Below, in pieces: positions 3,001 through 24,000 of a stretch of 54,304 nucleotides of DNA; position 1 is the first letter of the stretch, and each line of letters starts with the position of its first letter. Made by a program: the position numbers. The DNA is taken from positions 1 to 54,304 of the forward strand of contig JBBISH010000029.1 in assembly GCA_037441385.1 (NCBI GenBank). Direction: 5' to 3'. This DNA is from Myxococcales bacterium (lineage in GTDB: Bacteria > Myxococcota_A > UBA9042).

Positions 3001-6000
3001 GCAGCGTGCCCATGGCCGCGCTCCCTCCCCGACCCTCTCTCGGCGACCCATTTGGAGAAAGTCCATGTCGTTCATGACCCAATTCGAGTTCACCCTGCCG
3101 CGCGGTTACGTCGACAAAGACGGCGTCGTCCACAAGAAGGGCGTGATGCGCCTCGCGACCGCCAAGGACGAGATTTTGCCGCTGCAGGACTACCGCGTGC
3201 AGAACAACCGCGCGTACTTGGTCATCATTCTGCTGTCGCGCGTGATCGAGCAGCTGGGCTCGCTCAAGTCGATCAACCCGTCGATTATCGAGTCGCTGTT
3301 CTCGGTCGACCTCGCCTACCTGCAGGACTTCTACCGCCGCGTCAACGAAGAAGGCACGGCGATGATCAAGGCCAAGTGCCCCGAGTGCGGCCACCAGTTC
3401 GAGGTCGACACCGGAGGTGATCTGGGGGAATCGTAAGCTACCCCCTGGAACGGCTCTACCAGGAGGTAGCGTACATCGCCTACCACTTCCATTGGCCGCT
3501 CGACGAGATTCTGGACATGGAGCACAAAGAGCGCCAGGTCTGGGTCAAGGAGATCTCCGAAATCAATAAGGAGATCAACAAGTCGCGCAAGTAGTCTGCA
3601 GTCTTGGGCGGCGCCGCGCCTAAGCCGCGTCCCCGCACCATCACGGGAGTGCCAGCCGGTCAGCCCGCCCGGACAGTAGGAGCAGCATGGTCAACAACCG
3701 CGCCCCCGGTGTCTTCATGGAGCGCGGCCCCTCGCGGCCGACCGAGCTTGGCTTGTTGCCCAGTGGGATCCCCGTGTTCCTGGGCATGGCCCAGCGCGGC
3801 CCCACCAACGAGCCGGTTCGCGTCACCAGCATCGAGCAGTTCTACAGCGTCTTTGGCAAGCTGCCAGCCGAGATCGACACCTTCCTCGCGGCTTCGATCG
3901 ACGGGTTTTTCCTGAACGGTGGCCGCGAGTGCTACGTGATGCGCATCGCGCACTTGTTCGACCAGCCCACTGACGACGACCGCCCGAATTTCCGCGCTGG
4001 CGCGCCCGACCGCTTCGACTTCGCCATCAAGAGCTCCGCACGGCTCCGCGACGGTGCCAAGCAGAACACCCTGCTGGCCCAGGCGATGAGCGAGGGTGTG
4101 TGGGGCAACGAGATCCGCGTGTCGGTGGTGGCGCGGCCTTCGCCGGTGCAGACCTTCCTGACCGTCGACGGCCAGCCGGGCGACAACACGGTGATGGTCA
4201 AGTCGACCTACGGCTTTGCCCGCGGTACCCAGATCAAGCTGAGCGACGGCGTGCACGAGGCCTACCGCGTCATCACCGCCGTAGAAGGCCGCGTGCTGTA
4301 CTGGGGCGAGCGCGAGCCGCTCGAGACTACCTTCGCCTCGTCCGCGCCCACGCTCGTCGAGCCGGTGCACTTCGACCTCATCGCCGAAACCCACAGTCAG
4401 CGCGAGGTGTTCCGCGATCTCAACCTGGCCCGCCAGTCGCCCCGTTTTGCCGAGCGCGTCGTCAACGGTGTCTCGCAGCTCATCACGGTGACCGATCTGT
4501 CCAGCGACTCGCCGATGCCGCTGGCGTTTCCGGTCGAGGTGGCGAACCAGCGCTTGGAGGGCGGCGCCGACGGCCTGTTTACGGTCCGTCCCGAAGACTT
4601 CAACGGCATGGACAACGGCCCAGGCCAGCGCTATGGCCTGCTGGGTATTGCCGATTTTGAGCAGACCGACCTGGTGTGCATGCCGGACCTGGCTTGGTGC
4701 GTCAAGCGGGGCCTGTGGACGGTGCGCGACATGGAGGTCGTGCAGCAGCAGGCGGTGGCGATCTGCGAAGAGAAGCAGGACCGCTTTGCCATCCTGGACG
4801 TTCCGCCCGACTACACGCCCACCGGGGCCATGCAGTGGCGGCGCCTGTTCGACACTTCTTACGCGGCCCTGTACTACCCCTTTGTCAAGCCCAACAATTC
4901 GGCGCGGTTCGTCCCGCCGTCGGGCCACGTCGCCGGCATTTTCGCCCGCTGCGACCGCGAGATGGGCGTATACCGCGCGCCGGCCAACGAGGCGTTCCAA
5001 GGGGTGGTCGATCTGCAGCTCATCCTGCAGCAAGGCGATCTGGCCATGCTGAACGGCGAGGGCGTCAACTGCCTGCAGGTCCTGGGGCAGCGCGGTATCC
5101 GCGTCTGGGGTGCCCGCACCGCATCGTCCGAGCCGCAACTGCTGTACATCAACGTACGCCGCACGATCCTGGCCATTGCCCGCGCCCTGTATCGCGGCCT
5201 GCAGTGGGTGGTTTTCGAGCCCAACGACTACCAGCTGTGGCACATCATCCAGCGCGACGTGGGTTTCTTCCTCGATGCGCTGTGGCGGCAGGGCTATCTA
5301 AAGGGCGAAAGTGCCGAGCAGGCCTACGTCGTGCGCTGCGACGAGTCGGTCAACAACGCCGAGTCGATCACGCTCGGTCAGGTCGCGGTCGACGTCTGGC
5401 TGGCCCCGTTCCGCCCTGCCGAGTTCATCGGCGTGCACGTGGTGCAAGAAGTCGACTCGATGGCGCAAGAAGGTGGGGTCTAGGGGCACCACCCTGCCAC
5501 ATTTCGCGTGACCCTGGCACGCATTGTGCATACGATGATGGACGACGACGGCGGTGACGAACCCGGGCGCGACCCGTCAACAACCACCCCGTACAAGCAC
5601 AAGTGCTAACAGCGACTGCAACGACTCGCGCGCACTGACCCCGTCCGGGGTATCCCGCGCCGCGGTCGCCCAGTTCAAGACCAGCCCTGCTGCAATGGCA
5701 GCGCCGCTGCGCAACCCGTTCCACGTACCGGATTTTCGGAGGAAACCATGGCAGCCAACCTCCCCACTACCCAGCCCGCCAGTCCGAGCTCGCCCAAGGC
5801 GTCGGGCTCTCGCAGTCGCGCCTTGCTGGTGGCCGCGGAGCCTTCGCGCTCGCAGGGCAACCTGGTCGCACTGCCGGCCACTGCGCCGGAGTGGATCGGC
5901 CCGCACGGCGAAGAGCAGTTGGCCCTCGCCGCCATGGACCAGCCTAAAAAGCCTGCGCCCAAGCCGGCTAAGCCCGCGCCCAAGCCAGCCAAGCCCGCGC

Positions 6001-21000: not shown

Positions 21001-24000
21001 CGCTGCTGCAAAACGTGGCCAACTCGACCGGCGGCGTGTATCGGCGTATCGAGACCGACAAGTTCATCAACATCCCTGGCGTGTGGGACTCGCTGGCGCG
21101 CCGCATCAAGAAGCAGTTCATCATCAAGGTCACCTTGAAAGACCTGCCGAGTAACGGCGACGTCATCAAGGGCAAAGACGAGATGAAGTACAACCTGGTC
21201 ATGAAGACCAAGTTGAAGGACGGCGCGACCGAAGAGGGCGTCTACAACGACATTCGTCTGCCGGCGCCTAGCATCAACTGGAAGAACATCCTGAAGTGGG
21301 TCGGCATCGTCGTGGGCGGATTGCTGGGCGTTGGCCTGATCATCCTGCTGATCGTGTTCCTAGCCCGTCGCAAGGGCGAGGCGGCGCCGGTACAAGTCGA
21401 GCGCAGCGAGAAGCCCGACGGTCCGCACCGCGGCCGCCTGTCGGTCATCGCCGGCCCGATGGCGGGCAACGAGTTCTACCTGGTCGACGACGTCACCACC
21501 ATCGGCCGCATCAAGGGCAACACCGTGGTGATCCCCGATCCCAGCGTGTCGAGCCGCCACGCCGCGCTGAAGATTGACCAGATGCGCTACGAGATTGCCG
21601 ACTTGAATTCGCAGAACAAGGTGCTCGTCAACGGTCAGCAGGTCCACAAGGTCTTCTTGAAGGACGGCGACCGGGTCAAGCTGGGCGACACGGAGTTCCA
21701 GTTCTGGCTCAAATAACGCCGCTCCTCTCCCCGACGCCTTACGGCGTCTGCCCCTCTCCTCAACGCGCTGAGGAGAGGGGCTTTTGCGTTTTGGGAGGTT
21801 GGGTGGTGTCATCGGCCCGCGCTAGGGGCTTGAACCAGCGGCCCCCACGTGCCCGACCGGATGGGCGAGTCCAGCGGACTCGACCAAGTTGGGACCTGAG
21901 CCTGAACCTGAACCTGGACCTGAACCTGGGACGACTCCGGTTCGGGGCTCCAGCTCCGGCTCCCGTTCGGGTTCCGGCTTGGGAATCAGTGACTTGTGGG
22001 GTGCCGGGCTAGGCCTGCGGAGCGCGCTTGGTCGGGATCGCGTGCACGATGAGCCGCATCGCGAGGTCGGCCGTGGCGAAGGCCAGGCTGACGCCAGCAC
22101 CAATTGTTCCTGCCAAGATTGCCAGTTCCATCGTCCCCTCCGCGCGCGCACCATGGTCGGTACGTGGCGAATGTAGATCCGCGGCGCGGCGCCGCAAGAA
22201 ATTTGGCGATCGCGGCAGTTGACCGAGTAATGCTAGTGGTATTCGCTGGTTATCGGGCTGTGGCCCGCAGCTCCTGACCCAAGGCGCGGCTGAGTGCGGC
22301 CACGCGGTCGTCCGACAAACCGATGGCCTCGTGCTCGAAGTGGGGGCGCAGGCGCCCCTGCTCGTCGCGACGCGCGCTGACCTTGACGGTGAGCTGAGCG
22401 TCGAGTTCGCCCCAACGCAACAGCGCGCGATCGGGCAACAATTCTGCGGTGGCAAAGGCCAGTTCGCCCAGCGGGCGGCCTCGCAGGCGCGCGGCGACGC
22501 TGGCCACGACCTGCTGCGCTTGGCGGGCCACCTGACCCTGCTGCGCCGCCTGCTGCTGCCAGCTGGCCTGGAAGCGCTGCCACGAGGCGGCCGTGGGCCC
22601 CGTGTCGCCCAGCGCGCTAGCGATGGCTGTGGCGAGCTCTTGGGCCCCTTGCAGCGCCGCCGCATCGGGCATCGGCGCCCGCAGCGCGGCCGCTTGCCAG
22701 CGCTCGGCGACCAGCGTGCCCATCGCGTTGGGCAAGGGGGCTCGCCCCGCACGCTGCAGGCGCCACAGCCAAGGGCCCTTGCGCACACTCAGCTGGCCGG
22801 CGCGCTCGTCCACGCCCTCGACCTGCAAGCCGGCCTCACGCAGGGGTTTTTCGGTGAGCACCGCAAAATGGCGGCCGTCGAGGTCGTGCTGCCACAGGCG
22901 CTCGGCGTCGACCGGTTGGAACTCGGCGTTGCCGAAAAACTCGCGGTACGTGTCGAACACGCCCGAGCAGCGGCTTTGGAACACGCACTGGCTGCAGCTG
23001 GGCAAGTAGTGCTTGTCGCTGCGTTTGTCGGCGTATTTGTCAAAGCCCTCTTGGGTGTTGCCCTGGCCGTCGGCCGCGACCGTCACCGTGTCGCCGCCGT
23101 CGTGGTGAATGCGGTGGCTGATGGGCAGGCCCGTGCAGTAGGGCAGGTTGCCAAAATTCAGGTCCCAGTCTGGCCCAAGCTGGCGGTCGACTTCGCGCGA
23201 CAACGCCAGGAACGCCTTGGCCATGTCGGTGTAGCGCGGCAGCATGCCCCGCAATTCGTGCTCGCTGCGTTCGCCCGCATCGCGGGGGCGCATGACGTCG
23301 ATGTGCAAGTTTTCGAGCCGGTATTTCTTGGCGATGTCGGCCAGATGCACCACCGACCGGTAGTTCGACTCGACCGCGCACATGTTGCCCGACAGACGCG
23401 CGCCTTGACCGTGCAGGATGGCAAGCGAGTCGAGAATCCGCTGAAAGGATCCTGGGTTCACGGTGGTCGCGTCGTGGCTGGCGTGGTCGCCACCCTGCAG
23501 CGAGAACCGCCACACCGTCCGGCGCTGGTGTTCCGGACCCAGCCGCGCCAGCAACTCCAATGTGCGCTGGCGAAAGCCCTCGCGCGGCGTCATCACGCCG
23601 TTGGTAAAGATCACCACTTCGTCAAAGTCGAGCTCAACGGCCGCTTGCAGGATCTGCGCAAACGAGCGCTGAATGGTCGGCTCGCCGCCAAGCAACGTGA
23701 TGCGCCCCGCGCCGTTTTGGCGCGCCTCGCGGATCTGCCGCAGGATCGGCTCGACCGGCAGCTGCGGCGCGCGGTCCTGCTCGCTAAGCTGGCCCGACAC
23801 ACAGAACACGCAGCGGTTGTTGCACAAGTGCCCAAGCTGGACTTCGACCTGGCGCTCGGGATGCGCGCCCAGCTCGGCAGCGGTGGCGGCGGGGCGGTCA
23901 GTCATTGGCACTCCCAGCCGGCGGCGGCGGTCGCTTCAGCATACACGGGGCAGGCTGGCTCGCAACGGGCCGGTGCTTGGCCGCCCAAGAAGTGCTGGGA

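What a model noticed while it worked through the whole genome (the two positions that open the first line are those of the whole stretch)
3065..21716. A single-copy, vertically inherited contractile injection system scattered over housekeeping loci, with the VgrG split i [...]
The genome's CIS is not one cluster: chaperone, sheath, tube, hub, baseplate and FHA/VWA genes lie here, Pvc16 plus a second sheath follow surE-apt (C198), the spike half of VgrG sits between hflX and nuoA (C100:16055-16849), and three tube genes stand alone (C5, C14, C112). The system is single-copy and present in nearly all relatives at these fixed housekeeping positions, like a domesticated core machine.
Evidence so far: Hub matches VgrG_rel positions 11-349, spike positions 369-500. 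Spike near hflX in 25 and nuoA in 24 of 36 order genomes (24 of 24 such cases overall); Pvc16 near apt in 25. CIS baseplate in 24 of 24 family and 58 of 71 class genomes. One spike and one baseplate in each of 5 well-assembled relatives, on separate contigs; in the one-contig genome G078 they lie 6.4 Mb apart. Fixed signal-less wall hydrolases (Tae4 in 27, muramidase in 26 of 36) lie elsewhere.
(Added by a program. Inside this text positions count along the whole contig: contig position 1 is position 1 of the stretch shown here. "Call 12" and the like, gene names such as g00115 and contig names such as C1 are that model's own, and its searches are not shown. The text may have been shortened before it was handed on; [...] marks where a part breaks off. 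The agent that wrote the report below was given it as the finding of a first reader that could run no searches.)

Follow-up and report, generated by a model that had tools for sequence, protein, structure and literature searches.

The report
Scattered core injection machine of Myxococcota
A whole class of uncultured Myxococcota bacteria keeps one inherited phage-tail-like injection machine whose needle-tip genes always sit far from the main gene cluster, so cluster-based genome surveys would count it as incomplete although it looks complete and heavily used.

Summary
Real, but partly misdrawn. The window holds the core of a Streptomyces-like (IId-related) contractile injection system in an uncultured Myxococcota class. 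The VgrG hub is never within 30 kb of its spike (0 of 76 class genomes with both; also apart in 16 of 16 sister-class genomes). Corrections: Pvc16 and the second sheath (C198) are the head of this same cluster, cut off by an assembly break; a PAAR gene (C156) and a co-distributed Afp15-like ATPase (C133) do exist; only spike and Pvc16 keep fixed neighbours, and only within the family. New here: the spike belongs to an ancestral satellite 'tip operon' (spike, PAAR, DUF2169, and an unnamed 270-aa family X), intact in two genomes and in pieces elsewhere; DUF2169 and X are missing from all 18 genomes lacking hub and spike. The chaperone gene has a conserved GGGGGAA-plus-hairpin -1 frameshift into DUF6760. 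Trees, dN/dS, own promoters and ribosomal-grade codon bias fit an inherited, highly expressed core machine. Most likely an antibacterial weapon; docked or released is unresolved. Split loci and split Afp8 are known separately; the scan noted the spike-DUF2169 pair before on other DNA. New variant of a known kind.

The parts
3065..3436 (+). Tail assembly chaperone (G form), 123 aa
   Evidence: phrog_508 tail assembly chaperone E 8.8e-6; 76-100% identical across class
3424..3430 (+). Slippery heptamer GGGGGAA, predicted -1 frameshift site
   Evidence: present in 17 of 17 loci with a chaperone hit, 16 genomes; G-run in 7 sister-class loci
3433..3474 (+). Stimulatory hairpin after the slippery site
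   Evidence: -24.6 kcal/mol, z -2.42, 4 of 200 shuffles; stem Val codon GTA in 31 of 31 distinct sites vs 3.7% genome use
3424..3594 (+).
   Evidence: PF20546 E 1.2e-15; frame and codon census
3687..5483 (+). Sheath 2 (598 aa)
   Evidence: PF04984, PF17482
5748..6572 (+). Tube 2 / Cis5-like with Pro/Lys-rich leader
   Evidence: PF06841, CIS5_fam below cut-off
6613..11202 (+). 1529-aa Ala-rich protein, tape-measure candidate (inferred from position after chaperone pair and tube)
   Evidence: no family hit; 946-1808-aa ORF with similar C-terminus in this slot in 11 loci
11195..11872 (+). Cis7 tube initiator + LysM
   Evidence: PF19266, PF01476
11942..13099 (+). VgrG hub half (gp27-like), ends without spike
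   Evidence: VgrG_rel 11-349; best PDB hit 9gtr_q residues 70-353
13295..13322 (+). sigma70-like promoter TTGACA-N16-TACGAT in the hub-gp25 gap; relatives carry a small Zn-finger gene here, which in this genome sits on C95
   Evidence: 16 of 24 gp25 upstream regions reach score 11 vs 304 of 2240 background; ORF in gap
13377..13778 (+). gp25 / Cis9
   Evidence: PF04965
13775..16813 (+). Baseplate J / Cis11 (1012 aa)
   Evidence: TIGR02243 362.7 bits over cut-off
16843..17790 (+). PASTA + Tail_P2_I baseplate wedge
   Evidence: PF03793, PF09684
17875..19416 (+). Fibre: TssK-like shoulder and neck, CBM35/CBM6-like head (eBAP3-type)
   Evidence: model pLDDT 74.8; Foldseek top hit TssK 5m30 E 2.4e-5; VIA Z 9.2, rmsd 10.1, 252 aa to TssK 6n38 and Z about 10, rmsd 3.2, 124 aa to CBM35
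19504..20145 (+). Soluble FHA protein
   Evidence: PF00498
20142..21716 (+). VWA - one TM helix - FHA bitopic protein, candidate membrane checkpoint
   Evidence: PF00092, PF00498; hydrophobic helix from residue 383; signal peptide judged by eye
297..2917 (.). Passenger insert (Ser/Thr kinase-Lcl on -, Uma2 on +) between sheath 1 (C198) and the chaperone; not part of the machine
   Evidence: insert plus Uma2 at the same slot in G025

Best explanation
All parts make one functional contractile injection machine, produced constitutively at high level. Shown by sequence: core cluster Pvc16-sheath1-(tube1)-chaperone/frameshift-sheath2-tube2-tape-measure candidate-Cis7-hub-Zn finger-gp25-baseplate-fibre-FHA-VWA/TM/FHA; a separate tip operon spike-PAAR-DUF2169-X that split from it before the class radiated and then fell apart; tube1, Zn finger, ATPase and eCIS-core genes moved out later, each single gene with or near its own promoter. 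Inferred: hub and spike assemble in trans into a VgrG equivalent capped by PAAR; DUF2169 chaperones tip assembly with X as its partner or cargo; the G/GT chaperone pair sets tail assembly on the long protein; the particle is held at the inner membrane through the TssK-like fibre and the bitopic VWA-TM-FHA protein under Ser/Thr phosphorylation and is fired at contacted bacteria, delivering cell-wall hydrolases, as a predation or competition weapon.
For: One copy each of hub, spike, PAAR, gp25, baseplate, fibre, Pvc16, DUF2169, X in G000 and no TssC, so the orphans have no other machine. Hub and spike both hit the same fused Streptomyces-type chain 9gtr_q in adjacent ranges. Four-gene tip operon intact in G081, G082; spike beside DUF2169 in 22 of 77, X beside DUF2169 in 25 of 76. 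X and DUF2169 in 0 of 18 genomes lacking hub and spike vs 83 and 79 of 89. X domain is fused elsewhere to DUF4150, eCIS_core and lysozyme. Genera monophyletic 4 of 5 (spike), 4 of 4 (ATPase), family 0.993; dN/dS 0.02-0.25. Codon rank of 4572: tube1 3 and 4, sheath1 26, spike 43. Extra PAARs followed by amidase_3 or PG-binding M15 peptidase in G016, G017 (G018 same by sequence), RHS after DUF2169 in G083; Tae4, muramidase, CHAP in G000. VWA-TM-FHA sits where the Streptomyces membrane adaptor CisA sits (PMC12237407, passages); no lysis gene among 27 window proteins scanned. Myxococcota eCIS tube is the top transcript in two seamount MAGs (PMC11937823, section 14).
Against: No trans-envelope channel was identified, and a Gram-negative cell firing from inside needs one. 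A sugar-binding fibre head and a PASTA domain on the baseplate fit a released particle at least as well; TssK-like shoulders are general to eBAP3 fibres (PMC12923769, passages). The 18 negative genomes are about three independent losses. The link of Tae4, muramidase and CHAP to this machine is untested. Spike, PAAR and ATPase trees conflict at some supported deep nodes (4-10 conflicting split pairs). VWA-FHA is missing from the cluster stretch seen in G001 (L052) and G069 (L137). No DUF4150 client in 5 of 5 genomes, so the DUF2169 role is a guess.
Confidence: 0.45

Rival explanations
1. Same machine and same assembly in trans, but a released extracellular CIS: free particles bind prey glycans through the fibre head and PASTA and inject wall hydrolases; release by lysis of a subpopulation.
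For: CBM35/6-like head, PASTA, two eCIS_core genes, Afp15-like ATPase tracking the system; the seamount paper proposes this mode.
Against: No lysis cassette in the cluster (not searched genome-wide); housekeeping-type promoters and ribosomal-grade codon bias suit constitutive retention; fibre head 40-79% identical across classes, unusually conserved for a prey receptor binder; conserved bitopic FHA protein in the operon.
Confidence: 0.3
2. Self-directed cytoplasmic CIS as in Streptomyces: stress-triggered, membrane-adaptor-gated firing that lyses the producer.
For: Closest solved sheath is the Streptomyces one (8bky E 4.9e-137); CisA-like slot for a bitopic protein; own-wall hydrolases without obvious export signal could serve this.
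Against: Streptomyces CIS lacks fibre and tape measure (PMC10066040, passages), both present here; PAAR-linked variable hydrolases and RHS in relatives look like conflict cargo.
Confidence: 0.15
3. Domesticated non-weapon structure: sheath 1 and tube 1 mainly serve a structural or storage role, with injection secondary.
For: Sheath1 and tube1 are 82-85% identical across families, more than Apt or NuoF within the family; tube1 is duplicated with identical protein; in family f57 Pvc16-sheath1-tube1 stand apart from the rest.
Against: Spike, PAAR, baseplate and fibre are kept as strictly; filament subunits are constrained in any case.
Confidence: 0.07
4. Dispersal is an artefact of fragmented bins, or the orphans belong to a prophage or T6SS.
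For: True for the C198 piece; most genomes are MAGs in 20-1290 contigs.
Against: One-contig G101 has core, spike, PAAR, DUF2169, X, ATPase and an extra tube at seven places; G105 and G259 have hub and spike 113 and about 214 kb apart on one contig; hub is followed by Zn finger or gp25 in the cluster maps; no TssC.
Confidence: 0.03

Closest known systems
Streptomyces CIS (dbeCIS subtype IId; CIS-Sc, PDB 8bky/9gtr)
   Same: Closest solved sheath and VgrG; one baseplate J of TIGR02243 type; DUF6760; lineage-wide conservation; bitopic protein after the baseplate.
   Different: IId has one contiguous Afp8 ORF and one cluster (PMC6899500) and lacks fibre and tape measure (PMC10066040); here Afp8 is split and distant, fibre, long protein, DUF2169, FHA and VWA are present.
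eCIS subtypes IIa-IIc and the 13 'split loci' of Chen et al. 2019, including T6SSiv of Amoebophilus
   Same: Afp8 split into gp27 and gp5 ORFs; CIS encoded at more than one place (PMC6899500, passages).
   Different: Those are two-place splits in scattered genomes; here the spike is away from the hub in 76 of 76 class and 16 of 16 sister-class genomes, with up to seven places in a closed genome.
PLTS/eCIS clusters of uncultured Myxococcota (mostly UBA796) at the Zhenbei seamount
   Same: Same phylum, tube gene among the highest transcripts, predation proposed (PMC11937823, section 14 and passages).
   Different: That text describes clusters and does not mention a missing or distant spike, tip operon, DUF2169, frameshift or vertical single-copy status; I could not see Fig. 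7 and supplement file 1 is cut, so Table S16 may bear on identity with this system.
T6SS DUF2169-PIPY (DUF4150) tip chaperone system and orphan vgrG islands
   Same: DUF2169 next to spike and PAAR-type genes, occasional RHS or hydrolase cargo (PMC13584744, passages).
   Different: No T6SS sheath in G000, no DUF4150 in 5 of 5 genomes; DUF2169 is single-copy core and paired with a canonical PAAR and unnamed family X.
Aureispira T6SSiv (ixotrophy)
   Same: CIS-type, inner-membrane-anchored, prey-killing in a predator, with tape measure (bioRxiv 10.1101/2024.01.29.577165, passages): the working model.
   Different: Lineage I relatives, one cluster, Bacteroidota; no evidence here for its trans-envelope complex or antenna.
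Lambda gpG/gpGT-type tail chaperone frameshift (recalled, no call)
   Same: Chaperone ORF, slippery heptamer, downstream hairpin, start-less second frame, long gene downstream.
   Different: In a chromosomal CIS; no paper in the library holds 'DUF6760' and the frameshift search gave 2 listings whose titles and abstract starts concern other topics.

Membership tests
eCIS superfamily (Chen 2019 core) | Afp1/5 tube, Afp2/3/4 sheath, Afp7, Afp9, Afp11, Afp16 | tested here: met
eCIS superfamily (Chen 2019 core) | Afp8 (gp27+gp5) | tested here: met
   as two distant genes, VgrG_rel 11-349 and 369-500
eCIS superfamily (Chen 2019 core) | Afp15 AAA ATPase | tested here: inconclusive
   WHD+AAA at C133, single copy in 74 of 107 at E 1e-150, only C-terminal AAA matches in 3 CIS-less genomes and none in a fourth; five such tandem AAA paralogues in G000; no direct orthology test to Afp15
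eCIS superfamily (Chen 2019 core) | Release from the cell and action from outside | not testable with these tools
   needs imaging or purification
Subtype IId | Single afp11; sheath nearest Streptomyces CIS | tested here: met
Subtype IId | afp8 as one contiguous ORF | tested here: not met
   hub ORFs of 378-578 open-frame aa in complete matches, spike never within 30 kb
Subtype IId | afp13 fibre absent from most loci | tested here: not met
   fibre in all full clusters mapped
T6SS i-iii | TssB/TssC sheath | tested here: not met
   PF05943 0 hits in G000, 90.9% complete; control E. coli positive
T6SS i-iii | TssJLM membrane complex, ClpV | not tested
T6SSiv / membrane-anchored CIS | Inner-membrane anchoring and trans-envelope complex | not testable with these tools
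   only a candidate bitopic protein
Prophage | Capsid, terminase, integrase near tail genes | tested here: not met
   none among 27 window proteins scanned with Pfam, which covered the cluster and its flanks but not all window genes
DUF2169-PIPY tip system | DUF4150/PIPY client | tested here: not met
   PF13665 0 of 5 genomes

The most novel reading that the evidence does not exclude
A distinct CIS subtype that has been a single-copy core organelle of several deep Myxococcota classes, docked at the membrane under FHA/phosphorylation control and used as their main predation weapon, with its own tip-assembly pathway (stand-alone spike, PAAR, DUF2169 and a new fold family X that doubles as a general CIS/T6SS cargo domain) and phage-style G/GT frameshift control of tail assembly.
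Probability: 0.35. Interest if true: 0.85.

Novelty: new variant of a known kind. Interest (0 to 1): 0.66.

Why it matters
eCIS are usually treated as mobile, clustered accessory weapons and are counted by cluster (PMC6899500). Here one is inherited like a housekeeping machine across about four-fifths of a class and into sister classes, with tip genes that cluster-based screens cannot link, so counts of complete systems and of orphan spikes, PAARs and DUF2169 are likely biased. It offers a candidate killing mechanism for abundant uncultured predators, names testable new parts (X, the Zn finger, VWA-TM-FHA), and gives DUF6760 a function as a frameshift extension, testable with a simple reporter.

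Tried and rejected
sigma54 regulon for the dispersed genes: TGGCAYR upstream of 0 of 31 spike, 4 of 35 PAAR, 0 of 20 gp25 regions vs 8.9% background; rejected. T6SS as owner of the orphans: no TssC. DUF4150 client for DUF2169: none in 5 genomes. Fold of X: model pLDDT 77.6, pTM 0.74; best VIA Z 6.9, none at 8; no BFVD match at E 0.001; no PDB sequence hit; no Pfam/PHROG/NCBIfam hit; atlas gave only unnamed Myxococcota clusters at low recognition. A missing match does not show a new fold. Complex DUF2169 (G069) with X (G000): no verdict, score 0.12, cross-genome pair; not used as evidence. RNA: tube1 relatives at small word share in 24 runs of 16 studies; 4 laid, contigs mostly 80-95% alike, so relatives only and not shown transcribed. 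eCIS_core protein C93 vs the long Ala-rich protein: no significant similarity. C53, C177, C8, C157 ATPases were not profiled. Paper searches with no relevant result: Bradymonas + contractile injection 0, Bradymonabacteria + injection system 0, DUF6760 0, DUF6760-or-eCIS swamped by impedance papers. PMC12210884 has no 'Myxococcota' or 'split' passage. Earlier-finding look-ups by sequence and relatives were empty. bioRxiv supplements were not seen.

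
Full report
Setting. The window is contig C29 of a 6.6-Mb, 221-contig bin, 90.9% complete. Records holding close hub relatives are mostly titled as uncultured Myxococcota or Myxococcales; the class is not named by any search. The order search covers 37 genomes of one family, the class search 107 genomes of 18 families.

Observation. Pfam and NCBIfam confirm the genes at 3065-21716. The hub stops at VgrG_rel position 349 and the C100 gene covers 369-500; both have a Streptomyces-type fused chain, 9gtr_q, as hit in adjoining ranges (PDB entry organisms are my recall, the call gives only molecule names). 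A six-frame HMM census of G000 finds one hub, spike, PAAR, gp25, baseplate, fibre, Pvc16, DUF2169, two sheaths and four tubes. TssC is not found.

Correction 1, C198. Pvc16 lies within 20 kb of the hub in 14 of 32 family and 27 of 45 other class genomes with both. Gene maps give one ancestral order: Pvc16, sheath1, tube1, chaperone, DUF6760, sheath2, tube2, long protein, Cis7, hub, Zn finger, gp25, baseplate J, P2_I-PASTA, fibre, FHA, VWA-FHA. G025, 94-100% identical to G000 in these genes, has apt-Pvc16-sheath1, an insert, Uma2 and the chaperone on one contig, which matches the end of C198 and the start of the window. So C198 is very probably the head of this cluster. A real split at this point exists in G001, G003, G004, G007, G008, G023, G026.

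Correction 2, missing parts. PAAR is at C156:2420-2737, in 36 of 37 order genomes at 70-100% identity. WHD plus tandem AAA genes lie on C133, C53, C177. The C133 gene is single-copy in 74 of 107 genomes at E 1e-150, in 0 of 13 of the family that lacks the system; three of those give only a C-terminal AAA match near 1e-60 and a fourth CIS-less genome none, while a CIS-positive miss has full-length matches at 1e-138. It is the best Afp15 candidate, not a proven orthologue.

What is truly dispersed. Hub within 30 kb of spike: 0 of 33 family and 0 of 43 other genomes. In one-contig G101 the core is at 0.73-0.75 Mb, X 1.54, DUF2169 1.74, an extra tube 2.01, PAAR 5.77, spike 7.11, ATPase 7.79 Mb. 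Tube1 sits by Pvc16-sheath1 in 34 of 44 genomes outside the family and 0 of 31 inside; G002 is an exception, keeping it across a contig break. The spike is beside hflX in 25 of 30 family loci but 0 of 15 other-family loci mapped; PAAR, tube1 and ATPase have changing neighbours. In a sample of 401 phylum genomes Pvc16 matched 73, of which 16 lie in five families outside the class; seven of these show the same cluster order, six with hub followed by gp25 and no spike, the seventh cut at the hub; all 16 have one spike elsewhere. One such sheath is labelled Bradymonadales by its source.

The tip operon. Spike-PAAR-DUF2169-X is intact in G081 and G082; spike-PAAR in G102 and G104; PAAR-DUF2169 in G088; nuoA/spike-DUF2169-hflX in G015. 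Spike is within 5 kb of DUF2169 in 22 of 77 genomes with both, X within 5 kb of DUF2169 in 25 of 76. DUF2169 is found in 79 of 107 and X in 83 of 107, nearly always one gene, and in 0 of the 18 genomes lacking hub and spike (about three independent losses). In G000 all four are apart: C100, C156, C11:24171-26462, C82:5222-6034. X has no family or fold match (see Tried and rejected) but 769 representatives at 50% clustering; of 30 longer relatives scanned, one has DUF4150 above cut-off and three below, one eCIS_core, one phage lysozyme, three CARDB. In T6SS DUF2169 binds PIPY/DUF4150 (PMC13584744, passages); none was found in 5 genomes, so the client here is probably X or PAAR (inference).

Inheritance and expression. 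Genera are monophyletic in 4 of 5 (spike), 4 of 5 (PAAR), 4 of 4 (ATPase), 4 of 5 (tube1) cases, the family at 0.993 in the 46-tip spike tree; dN/dS to six congeners is 0.02-0.25; some deeper supported splits conflict between genes, as expected for short genes but not excluding local transfer. Against six reference genes picked by recalled motifs, codon bias ranks tube1 3 and 4, sheath1 26, spike 43 of 4572. A sigma70-like pattern, chosen, precedes 27 of 28 spikes, 14 of 19 gp25, 19 of 34 PAAR, against 461 of 2257 background genes and 0 of 15-19 for internal cluster genes.

Frameshift. The chaperone ends GGG GAA TCG TAA; the -1 frame runs into DUF6760. GGGGGAA is in 17 of 17 loci with a chaperone hit (8 of 25 loci had none), followed by a hairpin (z -2.42). 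Among 31 distinct sites collected with a stem-based pattern, the codon at the overlap is GTA 18, GTG 8, CTG 4, ATA 1, so it behaves as a residue, not a start, and the stem Val is GTA in 31 of 31 against 3.7% genome use. Rival: coupled re-initiation at GTG or a rare start. I put the frameshift at about 0.85. It implies a tape measure; the 1529-aa protein is the candidate by position only.

Mechanism. The fibre model has a TssK-like shoulder and CBM-like head, the eBAP3 plan attached to Tail_P2_I baseplates (PMC12923769, passages). The operon ends in a bitopic VWA-TM-FHA gene where Streptomyces has CisA (PMC12237407, passages). Extra PAARs in G016-G018 are followed by wall hydrolases and G083 has RHS after DUF2169; G000 has Tae4, muramidase, CHAP and two eCIS_core genes at separate sites, with no tested link. 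I favour a membrane-held weapon against bacteria (0.45) over a released particle (0.3), self-lysis (0.15), a non-weapon role (0.07) or artefact (0.03). That the parts make one working machine is about 0.9.

Known versus new. Chen et al. (PMC6899500, passages) report 13 two-place split loci and split Afp8 in IIa-IIc but contiguous in IId. PMC11937823 (section 14, passages, supplement search) reports highly expressed Myxococcota eCIS clusters. I found no description of a class-wide spike-less core, the four-gene tip operon, family X or the frameshift in ten library searches; subscription papers, figures and some supplements were not visible. PMC8651086, PMC10066040, PMC12210884 and the ixotrophy preprint were seen as passages only. 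Verdict: new variant of a known kind, interest 0.66.

Noticed in passing
G000 C198:6062-6228 (L001): Contig ends in a degenerate partial copy of the sheath 3' end, and C198:5950-6048 is 83% alike window 128-225; looks like a repeat-driven assembly break.
   Followed up: partly
G000 C95:18299-18553: Small Zn-ribbon gene that in relatives sits between hub and gp25 behind a strong sigma70-like promoter; possible regulator or baseplate factor.
   Followed up: partly
G000 C14:41641-42072 and C112:6854-7285: Two tube1 genes with identical protein, 96% DNA identity over 479 bases, different neighbours; similar duplicates in G023, G022, G001.
   Followed up: partly
G000 C5:37285-38217: Tube 3 with a 175-aa Lys/Ala-rich leader, like tube 2 in the window.
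   Followed up: no
window 297-2141: Ser/Thr kinase - TM helix - Lcl C-terminal domain fusion inserted in the CIS cluster.
   Followed up: no
window 21716-21930: Intergenic repeat family shared with many contigs.
   Followed up: no
G000 C53:12437-14824: WHD-AAA ATPase with an N-terminal ribosomal S13-like segment.
   Followed up: no
G000 C82:7133-13995 (L288): Run of short unusual ORFs on one strand just after gene X, resembling a small integrated element.
   Followed up: no
L250:3259-3867 (G367): Pvc16 gene interrupted by a TAG in an otherwise intact cluster.
   Followed up: no
G074, G076, G077, G078: Second, weak spike matches in ORFs of about 690-715 aa, possibly fused VgrG of another system in family f6.
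   Followed up: no
L136-L137 (G069) and family f57 loci L238-L249: Further splits of the core: hub and gp25 on different contigs with unrelated neighbours in G069; Pvc16-sheath1-tube1 standing alone in f57.
   Followed up: partly
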